From: an uncultured Chloroflexia bacterium
GTDB lineage: Bacteria > Chloroflexota > Limnocylindria > Limnocylindrales > CSP1-4
Reading direction: 5' to 3'
Assembly: GCA_963752475.1 (NCBI GenBank)
Contig: CAVVYR010000006.1
Span: 576,001 to 640,000 of the forward strand
Length of the DNA: 64,000 nt
Shown here: one piece after another, positions 34,695-39,239 of the stretch
Position numbering within the stretch: position 1 is the stretch's first letter
Layout: each line of letters begins with the position of its first letter
Made by a program: the position numbers and the translations under genes
Notes under the pieces: model-generated
What the model was told of the DNA's origin: nothing
Seen by the model: the letters and a program-made list of their open reading frames with translations, nothing else
The model's database searches: none

Positions 34695-34698
<4 letters not shown>
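34267..34698 (+). CDS. DUF4383-like four-TM membrane protein
   Basis: Four hydrophobic helices with HDLVHL and GHVLLG histidines. Confidence 0.7.
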
Positions 34699-35714
<1,016 letters not shown>

Positions 35715-35807
35715 GGGCTCGCGGTGACGAAGTCGCCGGGTATCCTGAGTCACGCGTGTCGTGCCCCGCGGGAGTGCTGCCGGGCTGTGCGCCGCAGGAG
35801 GTCAGCG

Positions 35808-36506
35808 ATGACGATGTCCGGAGCGCCCAAGAGCGATGACCCCGGGCTGGAACAGGAGGGCATCTGGGAGGAGCCGCAGGACGCGCGCTCCGACGCATCG
35901 CGTGAACGCGACGCTGATGCGCCGGACACGAGGGCCGGCGGCCTCACCAGCCGGCTGACCTCGACCGCCCTCACACCCGGCCCCGACGGCCTCGTCTACG
36001 CCGACGTGCCCAACCGCATCATCGCGCTGATCATCGACATCATCGTGCTCGTGGTCATCGGCGTCGTCCTGGCCTGGCTCTTCGGTGGCCTCGTGACCGA
36101 GCCGGGAGCCATCGACTCGGCCGGCGGAGAGCTCGACATCGTGGCCTTCATCATCGTGCTCGTGCTGCAGCTGGGCGTGAGCTTTGCCTACTTCGCCGGT
36201 GCCTGGACCCTGCTCGGCACGACGGTCGGCATGCGCTTGCTGGGGATGCGCATCGGCGACGAGGACGACGGCAGTCGCATCAGCTGGCAGCGCTCACTGG
36301 TGCGCTGGCTCCTGCTTGGCATCCCGGCGCTGCTCTCATCGCTGGCGGTCTACGTGCCCAACTTCGTGGGTCTGATCCTGTGGGCGCTGGGTGTGGCCTG
36401 GCTCGTCTTGCTGCTCTACACCATGGCTCAGAGTCCGACCAAGCAAGGCCTGCACGACCGCTACGCCCACACGATCCTGATCAAGGCTCGGCGTCGCGCA
36501 CTCTAG
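35808..36506 (+). CDS. RDD family membrane protein
   Basis: YADVPNRIIALIID, TVGMRLLGMRI, KQGLHDRYAHT; AGGAGG RBS. Confidence 0.88.
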   Translation: MTMSGAPKSDDPGLEQEGIWEEPQDARSDASRERDADAPDTRAGGLTSRLTSTALTPGPDGLVYADVPNRIIALIIDIIVLVVIGVVLAWLFGGLVTEPGAIDSAGGELDIVAFIIVLVLQLGVSFAYFAGAWTLLGTTVGMRLLGMRIGDEDDGSRISWQRSLVRWLLLGIPALLSSLAVYVPNFVGLILWALGVAWLVLLLYTMAQSPTKQGLHDRYAHTILIKARRRAL

Positions 36507-36522
36507 CTTCGCCCAAGGCTGG

Positions 36523-36632
36523 TTCTCCACGGTCTATCCACACTGAGCGCAGATCGGTGGATATCGCCGTTCGCGAAACCCGTGACTTCGTGGACAAGTC
36601 GATTGACCTTGGTGGGGCCTGCTCGGCATAGT
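36523..36632 (+). promoter_or_regulatory. DnaA-box-like cluster plus sigma70-type promoter
   Basis: TTCTCCACG 36523, CTATCCACA 36534, reverse ATATCCACC 36556, reverse TTGTCCACG 36589; TTGACC 36603 and CATAGT 36627 with an 18-nt spacer. Confidence 0.55.
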
Positions 36633-36637
36633 AGGTC

Positions 36638-36805
36638 TTGCCCGGAGGGGCCAGACACGGGGCCAGGGACGCGGCGATCACATCAACGCGAACCGGCCAG
36701 GTCAGGACAGCTGAGATCGCATCAAGGCCGTCCGGCATCCGAAGGTCGCTGCGATCACATCAAGGCGGCATGAGGAACGTGAAGGTCGCTCCGGGCGCTT
36801 CCATG
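36638..36805 (+). ncRNA. candidate small RNA with three hairpins carrying near-identical GMGAUCRCAUCAA loops
   Basis: Closing stem 36640-36652 with 36784-36796. Loops at 36674-86, 36713-25 and 36751-63, each on a different-sequence stem. Own promoter upstream; separate TACCCT -10 for punA downstream. Confidence 0.65.
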
Positions 36806-36854
36806 TGTCCGACGCGGTCTACCCTTGTGCGACCAGCAGCAGGAGCCGACCGCG

Positions 36855-37700
36855 ATGCCCGACCAGATCGTCCCCTTCAGCCAGAGACTCGACGAGCTGG
36901 AGGCGCATGTCCGCCAAGCCTCACCGCTGGTCCCGTCGCTGGGCATGGTCCTCGGCTCGGGACTGGGCGGACTGGCCGATGAGATCATGGACGCGGTCGA
37001 GATCCCCTTCGAGGAGATGCCAGGGTGGCCGGCGCCGTCCGTCGCAGGCCATAGCGGTCGCCTCATCCTCGGCTCCCTTCGCGGCCTGCCCGTAGCCTGC
37101 CTGCGCGGGCGCCTGCATATGTATGAGGGCCTATCCGAGCGGCTGGTCGTGGAGCCGGCGCTGCTCATGGGCCGCCTGGGAGCGCCCATCCTGTTGCTGA
37201 CCAACGCCTCGGGTGGCGTGAACCCGGCCTTCGGTGCCGGCACACTCATGGTCATGCGCGACCACATCAACCTCACCGGTCGAAACCCGCTGATGGGGCC
37301 CAACGACGACGCACTCGGCCCGCGCTTCCCCGACATGTCCGCGGTATGGGATGCCGAGTTGCGCGATCGTCTCCACGCTGCCGGCAGGGCAACGGACGTG
37401 GCCCTGGCCGAAGGCGTCTACCTCGGGCTCACCGGCCCCACCTACGAAACGCCTTCCGAGGTCCGCATGGTCCGAGGTCTGGGAGCCGATGCTGTGGGCA
37501 TGTCGACGGTGATGGAGGCGATGGCCGCGAATTGGGCCGGGATCCGCGTATGCGGTGTCTCACTCGTGACCAACCCCGGCGCCGGCCTCTCACCTACGCC
37601 GCTCACGCATGCGGAGGTCGTGGAGGCAGCCGATGAGGCGGGGCCGCGTCTGGCGCGCGTCATCGGGCGCTTCGCGGAGGACCTGCGCGACGCCCGCTGA
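36855..37700 (+). CDS. punA: purine-nucleoside phosphorylase
   Basis: VLGSGLG, VAGHSGRL, GRLHMYEG, TNASGG, DHINLTG, GPTYETPSE, DAVGMSTV, SLVTN. Confidence 0.95.
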   Translation: MPDQIVPFSQRLDELEAHVRQASPLVPSLGMVLGSGLGGLADEIMDAVEIPFEEMPGWPAPSVAGHSGRLILGSLRGLPVACLRGRLHMYEGLSERLVVEPALLMGRLGAPILLLTNASGGVNPAFGAGTLMVMRDHINLTGRNPLMGPNDDALGPRFPDMSAVWDAELRDRLHAAGRATDVALAEGVYLGLTGPTYETPSEVRMVRGLGADAVGMSTVMEAMAANWAGIRVCGVSLVTNPGAGLSPTPLTHAEVVEAADEAGPRLARVIGRFAEDLRDAR

Positions 37701-37712
37701 GCCGACGAGCGA

Positions 37713-38582
37713 CTAGACCGTGGGGAGGTCTCGACCGGCCTTCTTGGCCGCGGCCTTCTTCTCTGCCCAGGCGCCGAGGACGTTGTCCTTGTGGGGACGG
37801 ATGGGACAGTGCTCGTCGCGGTTCCGGTCCTCATCGCAGTAGCCCATGGGCACGCATTTCGGTGCCAGGAACGAGCCCAGGAACGGGCTCACCCTGAAGA
37901 CCTCGTGGCGGATGAGCTGGAACAGCCGGCGGATCTCCCATTGGGCCATGACGCAAAGTCGCAGGCCGGACATGTGGATGAGCGCGCGCAGGTTCGTCGT
38001 CATGACCAGGTTCGTACGCGTGGCGTTGGGCATCACGAAGCGCGCGTCCTCGCCGGGGATGCCGGCGTCGAGCATGTCTTCGTAGAACCGCAGCGAGCCC
38101 GCCATCTGCTCCTCGAAGCGATCACGGACCTCCTCGTCGGCATCGGTGATGGAGCCCGGCACCATGTAGCTGGGCTCCTTGTACTTGACGTAGCGCTGCG
38201 ACTGCTGGTCGAAGGCCAGGCCGGCGCGATGGCGCACGAGCTGATGGCTGAGCGTTCTCGTCACGCCGCTGATGGCGAAGGTGAAGACGATGTGCTCGAT
38301 CGTGGAGCCGTGGCCGGAGTCGATGACACGACGCACGAGATCCTGCTGCTTCTCGGGTGCGATGCGGCCGTTGGTAGCGCGCTCGAAGATGTCCTGTGGT
38401 TCCAGCTCGCTGTAGCACGTGCGACAGGCGGTGTAGATCAGTGGGACGTAGTAGTCCTCCACGATCTCGCGCGTGGGAAAGATGAGCGAAGCGCGCATGC
38501 CCAGGTCGCGGTTGGCCGGGCTCGGCGGCGTGCGGCTGCGCGGAGCGATCGTGTCCTCGGGCGGCGTGGGGGAGTCAGTCAC
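37713..38582 (-). CDS. thyX: FAD-dependent thymidylate synthase
   Basis: GHGSTIEH, SHQLVRHRAGLAFDQQSQRY, EDARFVMPN, NLRAL, RLC..AQWEIR. Confidence 0.93.
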   Translation of the reverse strand: MTDSPTPPEDTIAPRSRTPPSPANRDLGMRASLIFPTREIVEDYYVPLIYTACRTCYSELEPQDIFERATNGRIAPEKQQDLVRRVIDSGHGSTIEHIVFTFAISGVTRTLSHQLVRHRAGLAFDQQSQRYVKYKEPSYMVPGSITDADEEVRDRFEEQMAGSLRFYEDMLDAGIPGEDARFVMPNATRTNLVMTTNLRALIHMSGLRLCVMAQWEIRRLFQLIRHEVFRVSPFLGSFLAPKCVPMGYCDEDRNRDEHCPIRPHKDNVLGAWAEKKAAAKKAGRDLPTV

Positions 38583-38672
38583 CGCGCGAGTGTAGTCGGC
38601 TCCGGCGACCATCGCACGCGGTCCGTGCTAGCGTCGGTATCCACGACACGACATCGAACCCGAGGTAGTCCC

Positions 38673-39239
38673 ATGGTCCTGCGCAGCCTCTTCGGCGGCG
38701 GCAACAAGCAGTCACAGCAGCCCGAGGCGGTGCCGGCCGCCACGCCCAGCCAGTCCGACACCGAGTCGATCCGTCGGATCGCAGGCGAGCTCGATGCGCT
38801 GCCGCTCGACGAGCGTCGCTACATCGCTGCCTTCGCCTATGTGCTGGCGCGGGCAGCGCACGCTGACTTGGAGATCTCCCGCACGGAGCTCGACTACATG
38901 GAGAAGGCCGTCATCGATGTGGGCAAGATCCGCAGCGCCCAGGCCGTGCTGGTGGTCGAGATGGCCCGCAACATGGCCGAGCTCTATGGCGCTACCGACG
39001 ACTACGTGGTCACGCGTTCGTTCACCGAGAACTCCACGCGGGAGCAGCGCGAGACCCTGCTGCGCACCGCCTTCGCGGTCGGAGCCGCGGACGACACCAT
39101 CACCGCTGCCGAGAGCGCCGAGCTGAACCAGATCGGCAAGGAGCTGGGCTTCCGCTCAGACGAGATCGACTCTATCCGGAATGAGTTCCGCGACCAGCTC
39201 GCAGCCATCCAGGCGATGCGCCGCGCACGAGGCGTGTAG
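38673..39239 (+). CDS. TerB-like (tellurite resistance) family protein
   Basis: LARAAHADLEISRTE and FAVGAADDTITAAESAELNQIGKELG TerB-type repeats. Confidence 0.8.
   Translation: MVLRSLFGGGNKQSQQPEAVPAATPSQSDTESIRRIAGELDALPLDERRYIAAFAYVLARAAHADLEISRTELDYMEKAVIDVGKIRSAQAVLVVEMARNMAELYGATDDYVVTRSFTENSTREQRETLLRTAFAVGAADDTITAAESAELNQIGKELGFRSDEIDSIRNEFRDQLAAIQAMRRARGV

What the first reader, a model, noticed from the sequence alone, without database searches (positions are those of the whole stretch)
36638..36805. Three-armed RNA presenting nearly the same 13-nt loop three times (sponge-like sRNA)
Seen: inside a closing helix (36640-52 with 36784-96, plus CACG/CGTG) are three hairpins: GGCC.GG..CGCG/CGCG..CCGGCC, GUC.GGAC.GCU/GGC.GUCCGGC and GUCGCU/GGCGGC. 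The stems differ in sequence but the loops are GCGAUCACAUCAA, GAGAUCGCAUCAA and GCGAUCACAUCAA, 39 and 38 nt apart. Conserved loops on variable stems indicate selection at the RNA level. Known analogues: CsrB/RsmZ (GGA loops) and cuckoo/6C RNAs, but this loop matches none I recognise. Inference: titrates an RNA-binding protein or pairs with UUGAUGYGAUC targets.
Basis: partly seen in the sequence, partly recalled or inferred. Interest (0 to 1): 0.85.

Follow-up and report, generated by a model that had tools for sequence, protein, structure and literature searches.

The report
New multi-arm hairpin RNA upstream punA
A real, previously uncatalogued small structured RNA of soil and sediment Chloroflexota sits in front of a purine-salvage gene, here with its conserved hairpin tip triplicated; what it binds is still unknown.

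Summary
Window 36640-36796 (+) folds exactly as described: a closing helix holding three hairpins, each with the loop G[C/A]GAUC[A/G]CAUCAA.

- The stems covary.
- No Rfam 15 family matches.
- Contigs from RNA libraries hold just this stretch.

It is the expanded form of a one-hairpin RNA family of about 60-80 nt. I found that family only in two families of the class Limnocylindria: 120 of 151 and 86 of 151 genomes in two samples, and 0 of 137 other Chloroflexota.

Every member carries the same unit: three or four DnaA-box-like GTGGAYAA sites, a sigma-70-type promoter, the hairpin starting about 7 nt after the -10, then a U-rich tail.

In the window's family it precedes punA (77 of 136 loci) or a GIDE-like membrane protein (42 of 136). 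In the sister family it mostly stands alone.

My best reading is a small RNA and 5' leader whose arm tips are repeated binding sites for an unidentified factor, probably a protein. The sponge function itself is not shown.

The parts
36523..36530 (-). DnaA-box-like site TTCTCCAC (reverse complement GTGGAGAA), most distal
   Evidence: Read. It is one of the GTGGA/TCCAC cores counted. The DnaA-box consensus is recalled, not taken from a call.
36535..36542 (-). DnaA-box-like site TATCCACA
   Evidence: It belongs to one of only 3 clusters of three or more GTGGAYA sites in the 4.2-Mb genome.
36557..36564 (+). DnaA-box-like site GTGGATAT
36590..36597 (+). Promoter-proximal DnaA-box-like site GTGGACAA, 5 nt upstream of the -35
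   Evidence: A GTGGA[CTG][AG]A site lies at -53 to -46 from the hairpin in 118 of 142 distinct family members.
36603..36632 (+). Sigma-70-type promoter: TTGACC, 18 nt, CATAGT
   Evidence: 9 of 12 matches, 1 site found against 0.1 in shuffles. The position is conserved in all members shown.
36640..36796 (+). The structured RNA: closing helix plus three arms
   Evidence: Fold. Homologs with 1, 2 or 3 arms. Covariation. RNA-library contigs cover 36647-36795.
36640..36652 (+). Closing helix, 5' strand GCCCGGAGGGGCC
   Evidence: The pair at alignment columns 6/83 switches G-C to A-U in 12 of 40 distinct sequences.
36661..36698 (+). Arm 1, with loop GCGAUCACAUCAA at 36674-36686
36701..36736 (+). Arm 2, with loop GAGAUCGCAUCAA at 36713-36725
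36738..36776 (+). Arm 3, with loop GCGAUCACAUCAA at 36751-36763
36784..36796 (+). Closing helix, 3' strand GGUCGCUCCGGGC
   Evidence: In run X5 the contigs end at 36795, followed by adapter letters.
36797..36808 (+). U-rich tail GCUUCCAUGUGU after the closing helix (terminator-like, weak here)
   Evidence: Across the family the first 10 nt hold a mean of 4.5 T, against 1.35 in control stretches. The simple terminator scan finds none in the window but does in a sister-family member.
36813..36854 (+). Predicted Shine-Dalgarno-masking structure: helix CGCGGUC/GACCGCG, in which the conserved UACCCU (36820-25) pairs with the Shine-Dalgarno AGGAG (36841-45)
   Evidence: prediction only, z -1.18. The CUACCC element is conserved in punA leaders of other genera.
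36855..37700 (+). punA, purine-nucleoside phosphorylase
   Evidence: Pfam PF01048 at E 5.5e-47. NCBIfam NF006054 at 325.7 bits against a cut-off of 218.

Best explanation
Window 36640-36796 encodes a member of an uncatalogued small structured RNA family of the Chloroflexota class Limnocylindria.

The basic unit:
- It is a hairpin of about 60-80 nt.
- It has a sequence-conserved 12-13-bp closing helix (CCCGRAGGRGYC with GRYYNCUYCGGG) and a variable middle.
- Its tip is an invariant 13-nt loop, G-M-GAU-NRC-AUC-A-A.
- It is transcribed from a sigma-70-type promoter that starts the RNA at the foot of the helix.
- The promoter is preceded by three or four DnaA-box-like sites.
- The hairpin is followed by a U-rich tail, so the closing helix probably also ends (or, after trimming, bounds) a short stable RNA.

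In the window's genus the tip module at the punA locus has been multiplied to two or three arms.

Shown:
- The structure and its covariation.
- The conserved promoter unit.
- The distribution across genomes.
- The gene neighbourhoods.
- Presence of just this stretch in RNA libraries.

Inferred mechanism:
- Each arm tip is a sequence-specific binding site for one unidentified trans-acting factor, most likely a protein.
- Extra arms raise valency, so the RNA acts as a scaffold or titrator.
- Transcription that runs past the helix yields punA mRNA, whose Shine-Dalgarno sequence is masked by a conserved CUACCC hairpin.
- In this family the RNA would therefore be both a small RNA and a leader.
- The DnaA-like boxes would tie its synthesis to replication status.
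For: Structure:
- The fold matches the drawing, with z -3.18 on the plus strand only.
- On 40 distinct one-arm members, 90.5% of cells pair, against 81.1% in shuffles and 29-46% when partners are slid. 14 of 27 pairs show changes on both sides.
- On 127 distinct arms anchored on the loop without gaps, 90.1% of cells pair, against 16.5-38.9% when slid. The loop-closing pair takes 6 pair types, while the GAU/AUC letters stay fixed.

One unit:
- GTGGA/TCCAC cores number 3.62 on average in -130..-1, against 0.20 in control stretches.
- The proximal box is present in 118 of 142 distinct members.
- The tail is T-rich, 4.5 of 10 against 1.35.
- The promoter is called by the scan.

The arm is a module:
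- In the genus, 3 loci have 3 arms, 13 have 2 and 14 have 1, all before punA.

A trans role is needed:
- In sister family f4 the RNA is in 46 of 50 genomes, at 3 copies in 10 of 10.
- Many of those copies are followed by convergent genes or a tRNA.

A cis link in family f1:
- 77 of 136 loci precede punA and 42 of 136 precede one membrane protein.
- Masking of the Shine-Dalgarno sequence is predicted.

RNA evidence:
- Contigs of three RNA runs (studies P3, P12, P13) cover 36647/48/50 to 36795 or 36770.
- They are flanked by Illumina adapter letters, so inserts of about 120-150 nt were sequenced.

Protein rather than pairing:
- The loop has internal structure.
- Its two central letters vary.
- No target stands out.
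Against: - No partner is identified. I found no Hfq, CsrA or Ro/TROVE in the window's own genome, which is 88.8% complete. RRM domains were found in 0 of 151 genomes of the class.
- Contigs cannot prove transcription, strand, true ends or level, and DNA can be present in RNA libraries (caveats printed). The three studies may be one campaign.
- The window's tail is only weakly U-rich, and the terminator scan finds nothing there.
- The Shine-Dalgarno-masking fold is weak, at z -1.18.
- The DnaA-box identity rests on likeness to a recalled consensus and to TCCAC sites in this genome's dnaA-dnaN spacer. Binding was not tested.
- The alignments used for one search were fitted to the model.
- Related genomes are not independent of one another.
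Confidence: 0.42

Rival explanations
1. It is a cis-acting riboswitch or attenuator. The hairpin tip, or each tip, binds a small molecule, plausibly one related to purines. Binding stabilises or destabilises the closing helix, which doubles as a terminator and so sets read-through into punA or the membrane-protein gene.
For: - It sits at the very 5' end of the transcript, ahead of one enzyme of purine salvage in 77 of 136 loci.
- A U-rich tail follows the helix.
- The sequence after the helix repeats part of the 5' strand (UUGCCCGG in many genera), so alternative pairings exist.
- A conserved Shine-Dalgarno-masking hairpin lies downstream.
- Many genera add a second conserved domain.
- In the sister family some copies point into the 3' end of a convergent upp gene, which could be antisense control.
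Against: - In f4 the neighbours are heterogeneous: tRNA, an ECF sigma factor, an oxidoreductase and convergent membrane proteins.
- The duplicated part is the tip alone. The two conserved parts, helix foot and tip, are separated by a variable stem of about 20 bp, which is unlike a single binding pocket.
- No similarity to any Rfam riboswitch.
Confidence: 0.2
2. It is a base-pairing small RNA. The loops are seeds that pair with UUGAUGYGAUC-like sites in mRNAs, and three arms allow multiple or stronger pairing.
For: - An exposed, highly conserved 11-13-nt loop.
- Stand-alone genes with their own promoter and tail in f4.
- Several membrane-protein genes downstream begin GUGAUC or AUGAUC, the complement of GAUCAC.
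Against: - Only 5 exact complementary sites lie elsewhere in the genome, all in coding-like context and none at a start region.
- The centre of the would-be seed varies between copies (CAC, CGC, UGC, GAC).
- GAU/AUC are predicted to pair within the loop.
- The GUGAUC start is not conserved; several orthologs begin GUGCUU.
- No Hfq was found.
Confidence: 0.12
3. It works mainly at the DNA level. The locus would be a DnaA-box cluster, comparable to the datA or DARS loci of E. coli. Its short, self-terminating transcription unit would modulate DnaA binding, and the RNA itself would be a by-product.
For: - Three or four DnaA-box-like sites in every member, at 2-3 loci per genome.
- This is one of only 3 such clusters in the window's genome.
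- In four one-contig genomes all 8 copies lie within about 30% of genome length from dnaA (genome sizes are rounded).
- The loop contains ATCAA, part of the recalled IHF consensus WATCAA.
Against: - Stem covariation with frequent G-U pairs (19 U-G at the loop-closing pair) fits a folded plus-strand RNA, not duplex DNA.
- The rest of the recalled IHF consensus (TTR after 4 nt) is absent.
- Box orientation and spacing differ between gene classes.
Confidence: 0.1
4. It is only a protective 5' stem-loop plus terminator, with no specific partner. Alternatively, it is a type III antitoxin-like repeat array.
For: - It lies at the 5' end, has strong GC helices and appears in RNA-library contigs.
- Repeats of 38-39 nt upstream of a gene, separated from it by a terminator-like helix, resemble the ToxI layout (recalled).
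Against: - A purely structural element would not keep 11 of 13 loop letters fixed across two families while the stems drift.
- The downstream gene is an equivalog-level punA, not an endoribonuclease.
- Most members have a single arm.
Confidence: 0.05

Closest known systems
CsrB/RsmZ-type protein-sponge small RNAs
   Same: Several hairpins display the same short loop motif on unrelated stems. The copy number of the motif varies between relatives.
   Different: The loop is G-M-GAUNRCAUC-AA and contains no GGA. I found no CsrA gene in the genome and no Rfam match. Most members have one hairpin only. Here it is also a 5' leader.
Guanidine-II (mini-ykkC) riboswitch (recalled)
   Same: Small hairpins in a 5' leader whose stems vary while the loops are conserved. 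The function lies in the loops.
   Different: That family has ACGR tetraloops and two hairpins that pair loop to loop. This one has a 13-nt structured loop in 1-3 copies, no known ligand, and stand-alone copies in family f4.
Type III antitoxin RNAs such as ToxI (recalled)
   Same: The layout: promoter, tandem repeats of about 36-40 nt, a leaky terminator, then a gene.
   Different: The gene is punA or a membrane protein, not an endoribonuclease. The repeats are arms of one folded domain. One arm is the rule.
Protein-binding leader hairpins of nucleotide-metabolism operons, such as PyrR sites (recalled)
   Same: A conserved hairpin loop in the leader of a nucleotide-salvage gene, with a neighbouring terminator-like helix.
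   Different: No sequence likeness, no Rfam hit and no candidate binding protein. A DnaA-box-like promoter is part of the conserved unit.

Membership tests
CsrB/RsmZ sponge | GGA (ANGGA) motifs in the hairpin loops | tested here: not met
   The three loops read GCGAUCACAUCAA, GAGAUCGCAUCAA and GCGAUCACAUCAA. None of the 127 arms has GGA in its loop.
CsrB/RsmZ sponge | A CsrA/RsmA protein encoded in the genome | tested here: not met
   PF02599 was not found in G000, which is 88.8% complete, so absence is not proven.
Any Rfam 15 family (including 6C, cuckoo, CsrB, RsmX/Y/Z, purine and 2'-dG riboswitches) | Covariance-model score at or above the gathering threshold | tested here: not met
   - 0 hits in the whole window.
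- Nothing overlaps the element at E up to 10.
- One-arm members and long leaders give only TPP or tRNA hits elsewhere in the locus, or chance miRNA-like scores far below threshold.
Riboswitch | Consistent association with genes of one pathway | tested here: inconclusive
   In f1, 77 of 136 loci precede punA and 42 of 136 precede one membrane protein. In f4 the neighbours are mixed, many of them convergent.
Riboswitch | Direct binding of a small molecule by the RNA | not testable with these tools
   This needs in-line probing or ITC.
Intrinsic terminator / attenuator | A GC-rich helix followed at once by a U tract | tested here: inconclusive
   - The tail is T-rich across the family, 4.5 of 10 against 1.35.
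- The scan finds a terminator-like site in an f4 member.
- It finds none in the window.
Type III toxin-antitoxin | An endoribonuclease toxin gene downstream of the repeats | tested here: not met
   The downstream gene matches NF006054, purine-nucleoside phosphorylase, at 325.7 bits against a cut-off of 218.
DnaA-regulated promoter | Sites matching the 9-mer DnaA box next to the promoter | tested here: met
   - Sites are TATCCACA, GTGGATAT and GTGGACAA in the window.
- The proximal site is present in 118 of 142 members.
- Similar TCCAC sites lie in this genome's rpmH-dnaA and dnaA-dnaN spacers.
- The consensus is recalled.
DnaA-regulated promoter | DnaA binds the sites and changes transcription | not testable with these tools
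   This needs EMSA or footprinting, plus reporter assays.

The most novel reading that the evidence does not exclude
The hairpin is the first riboregulator of a DnaA regulon. DnaA would switch on an abundant small RNA from 2-3 origin-proximal loci per genome. The RNA's repeated tips would capture a dedicated, still unknown RNA-binding protein, or DnaA itself. That would couple the state of replication initiation to nucleotide salvage (punA here, upp nearby in the sister family).
Probability: 0.12. Interest if true: 0.85.

Novelty: new variant of a known kind. Interest (0 to 1): 0.62.

Why it matters
Limnocylindria (the former Ellin6529 group) are abundant, mostly uncultured soil and sediment Chloroflexota, and almost no regulatory RNA is described for them. 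Three full-text searches returned nothing:
- 'purine nucleoside phosphorylase' + riboswitch + Chloroflexi.
- 'DnaA box' + 'small RNA' + Chloroflexi.
- Limnocylindria + 'noncoding RNA'.

This is a well-supported new RNA family with four notable features:
- A clear modular design in which one conserved tip is multiplied one to three times.
- A promoter that looks DnaA-controlled.
- A link to purine salvage.
- Presence in environmental RNA libraries.

It offers a tractable handle on gene control in this lineage: a short RNA bait and a defined motif. If the DnaA link holds, it would be an example of replication-coupled riboregulation.

Tried and rejected
1. Pairing of the tip loop with the second conserved hairpin of the long punA leaders (GAYGYGAYC). 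By my reading of the table, 13 of 41 loci put loop A opposite C, with no covariation. The Y instead covaries with the hairpin's own 3' strand (AYCG/CGRU). Rejected.

2. Loop-loop kissing through the GAUC palindrome. Copies with GAUG and GAUU break the palindrome. Rejected as a general feature.

3. Targets by complementarity in the window's own genome.
- There are 8 exact matches over both strands, and 3 of them are the arms themselves.
- The other 5, and the 171 one-mismatch hits, look like ordinary coding sequence.
- The reversed-pattern control (0 exact, 9 with one mismatch) differs in composition and is a poor control.
- No lead came from this.

4. GACCACATCAA inside punA (37260-37270). It encodes the RDHIN motif and has no local structure, z +0.75. 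A coding coincidence.

5. Known RNA chaperones and partners. Hfq, CsrA and TROVE were not found in G000. RRM was found in 0 of 151 genomes of the class.

6. Co-distribution with the GIDE-like protein.
- The protein: f1 33/44, f2 6/6, f3 0/49, f4 40/50.
- The RNA: f1 38/44, f2 0/6, f3 1/49, f4 46/50.
- The two are not strictly linked. The query finds relatives only.

7. Clustering of upstream neighbour ORFs. Stop-to-stop frames in GC-rich DNA gave only synteny noise.

8. Read laying. No contig covered 36400-36637, and there was only thin, patchy cover over punA. No listed contig bridges the hairpin and punA.

9. Habitat. I make no claim about it.

11. Supplements of papers were not consulted, and no paper was read.

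Full report
**Observation**

The sequence at 36638-36805 is as described.
- The minus strand does not fold better than chance (z -0.67).
- The structure has a closing helix (36640-52 with 36784-96) and an inner CACG/CGUG helix.
- Its three arms are 36661-98, 36701-36 and 36738-76. Their 13-nt loops lie at 36674-86, 36713-25 and 36751-63.
- The 11-mer GATCRCATCAA occurs exactly three times, 39 and 38 nt apart. With one mismatch allowed there are 7 hits against 1.63 expected, and 0 of 100 shuffles reach 7.

**Setting in the window**

- Upstream lie moaA (34695-35714) and an RDD-family gene (35724-36506).
- Downstream, ATG 36855 opens a purine-nucleoside phosphorylase: PF01048, and NF006054 at 325.7 bits against a cut-off of 218.
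- A convergent thyX follows.
- A sigma-70-type promoter, TTGACC-18-CATAGT at 36603-36632, is the only one the scan finds in 36300-37100. It would start the transcript at the foot of the closing helix.
- The element is therefore at least the 5' leader of punA.
- The rest of the leader is predicted to mask the Shine-Dalgarno sequence AGGAG (36841-45) with a conserved UACCCU (36820-25), inside a helix 36813-19/36848-54. This is prediction only, z -1.18.

**Relatives**

- BLAST of the element finds it in 29 of 36 other genomes of the genus and in 0 of 24 genomes of a small-genome sister family.
- All 30 loci lie before punA and keep the closing helix and the loops. 3 loci have three arms, 13 have two and 14 have one.
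- A covariance model of the one-arm form (R1) hits 120 of 151 genomes of the family, in 40 of 49 genera, usually twice per genome.
- The window's own genome has a second, one-arm copy at G000:C4:34950-35025.
The 80 listed records are almost all titled Chloroflexota, Chloroflexia or Candidatus Limnocylindrales/Limnocylindria MAGs.
- In a sample of the class, a refined model finds the RNA in f1 38/44, a second family f4 46/50, f2 0/6, f3 1/49 and f5 0/1.
- In a sample of the phylum it appears in f1 2/3 and f4 10/10, with exactly 3 copies each in f4, and in 0 of 137 other genomes.
- These are samples, and many genomes are incomplete. I write 'not found', not 'absent'.

**Evidence that it is an RNA structure**

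- On 44 one-arm members (40 distinct), 90.5% of pair cells are standard pairs, against 81.1 +/- 0.7% after shuffling and 29-46% with partners slid.
- In that set, 14 of 27 pairs change on both sides, and the closing helix switches G-C to A-U in 12 sequences. That alignment was fitted to the model.
- I therefore also cut 127 distinct arms as gap-free 29-mers anchored on the loop. There, 90.1% of cells pair against 16.5-38.9% when slid, and the loop-closing pair takes six pair types.
- Meanwhile G9, G11, A12, U13, C16, U18 and C19 of the loop region never change.
- Frequent U-G pairs fit only the plus strand.
- No Rfam 15 family reaches threshold, or even E 10, on the element. This holds for the three-arm form, the one-arm forms and the long leaders.

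**Evidence for an RNA product**

- Contigs from three metatranscriptome runs (coded X5, X17, X18, from three coded studies) cover 36647/36648/36650 through 36795 or 36770.
- They are directly flanked by Illumina adapter letters, so library inserts of roughly 120-150 nt with those ends were sequenced.
- One contig shows a 48-nt skip that removes an arm, as in two-arm relatives.
- Contigs cannot show strand, true ends or level, and DNA can contaminate RNA libraries. This is a hint at a discrete short species bounded by the closing helix, not proof.

**The conserved unit**

- In 142 members with distinct upstream sequence, the 130 nt before the hairpin hold 3.62 GTGGA/TCCAC cores on average, against 0.20 in control stretches.
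- A GTGGA[CTG][AG]A site sits at -53 to -46 in 118 of 142, a few bases before the -35.
- The 10 nt after the helix hold 4.5 T against 1.35. In f4 the tail reads like a terminator, CAUUUUUGUG.
- GTGGAYAA is the reverse complement of TTRTCCAC, the core of the DnaA box (consensus recalled).
- This genome's rpmH-dnaA and dnaA-dnaN spacers carry TCCAC sites of the same kind, and the latter also a GAT-repeat tract.
- Only three clusters of three or more GTGGAYA sites exist in the 4.2-Mb genome, and this is one.

**Neighbourhoods**

- Of 136 loci from f1 and the collection scan, 77 precede punA and 42 precede one membrane protein. That protein has no Pfam or NCBIfam family. Similar Atlas clusters carry GIDE (PF12483) on about 20% of their members, which is a lead only.
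- Of the remaining 17 loci, 10 gave singleton ORFs and 7 gave none.
- In most f1 genera the punA leader is much longer. It adds a second conserved domain and the Shine-Dalgarno-masking hairpin. The window's genus lacks that domain and instead multiplies the arm.
- In f4 the three copies per genome sit next to varied genes: a tRNA, an ECF sigma factor, and an oxidoreductase.
- Others there sit tail to tail with convergent genes, one of which ends in a motif I recognise (recalled) as uracil phosphoribosyltransferase.
- A purely cis role cannot explain f4, and a purely trans role ignores the tight f1 synteny.

**Mechanism**

I take the arm tip to be a sequence-specific binding module.
- The tip is a mini-helix GAU/AUC capped by a variable N-R-C triloop and flanked by G-M and A-A.
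- It is invariant where a structural element would drift.
- It is duplicated independently of the helix foot.
- Its centre varies where a pairing seed should not.
- A protein partner is therefore the best guess, and more arms mean more sites.
- The closing helix plus U-rich tail would end or bound the short RNA. Read-through would give punA mRNA under a second, translational lock.
- DnaA-like boxes would set the RNA's synthesis.

None of the binding steps is shown. The usual partners (Hfq, CsrA, Ro, RRM) were not found.

The rivals are a riboswitch, a pairing small RNA, a DNA-level DnaA locus, and a plain stabiliser or type III antitoxin. They are weighed in their own sections.

**Verdict**

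This is a real RNA family that is new to Rfam, and its modular expansion here is unusual. Confidence that it is a genuine conserved structured RNA is above 0.9. Confidence in the proposed mechanism is about 0.4.

Noticed in passing
window 36523-36597: Four DnaA-box-like sites (TTCTCCAC, TATCCACA, GTGGATAT, GTGGACAA) lie just upstream of the RNA's promoter. The same arrangement is conserved in front of every family member. Orientation of the distal sites differs between the punA class and the membrane-protein class.
   Followed up: partly
G000:C4:34950-35025 (locus L033 1501-1576, +): The same genome holds a second, one-arm copy of the RNA. It lies before a 241-aa membrane protein with no Pfam or NCBIfam family. 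Similar Atlas clusters carry GIDE on about 20% of their members.
   Followed up: partly
e.g. L057 1190-1500 (-); L043, L051, L097 and about 40 other loci: - In most genera of the family the punA leader has a further conserved domain.
- It contains an inner hairpin whose stem covaries (AUCG/CGAU against ACCG/CGGU) and whose loop GCAUCCCGGUGU is invariant.
- It is closed by GCUUCGUUGCCCG with CGGGCGAUCGAAGC, and a Shine-Dalgarno-masking hairpin follows.
- No Rfam match.
- This may be a separate new leader or riboswitch candidate.
   Followed up: partly
window 37260-37270: GACCACATCAA, one letter off the loop motif, lies inside punA and is conserved in relatives. It encodes the RDHIN motif and has no local structure. 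Probably coincidence.
   Followed up: yes
G000:C8:424306-424855 (locus L184): The dnaA-dnaN spacer has TCCAC sites and a tract GATGATGATGAGATGAGAAGAT that looks like DnaA-trio repeats. It is a likely oriC.
   Followed up: no
G000:C8:487315-487395 and G000:C31:20475-20510: These are the only two other clusters of three or more GTGGAYA sites in the genome. What they control was not examined.
   Followed up: no
L033 140-245 (-), also L035, L053, L054, L062: TPP riboswitches (RF00059, 69-73 bits) lie about 1.3 kb from the membrane-protein copies of the RNA. This is probably synteny only.
   Followed up: no
G081, G087, G197, G267 (one-contig genomes): All 8 copies of the RNA lie within roughly 30% of genome length from dnaA. 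Genome sizes are rounded and relatives are not independent, so this is only a weak tendency towards the origin.
   Followed up: partly
window 37713-39239: thyX (minus strand, 37713-38612, PF02511) is overlapped on the plus strand by a long ORF, 37791-39239. The TerB domain of that ORF lies only in its last third, so the true TerB gene probably starts after thyX.
   Followed up: no
L238, L240 (family f4): In the sister family one RNA copy sits tail to tail with a gene whose product ends YIVPGLGDAGDRQFGT. I recognise this (recalled) as uracil phosphoribosyltransferase. The gene ends 23-186 nt beyond the hairpin. It is another nucleotide-salvage neighbour.
   Followed up: no
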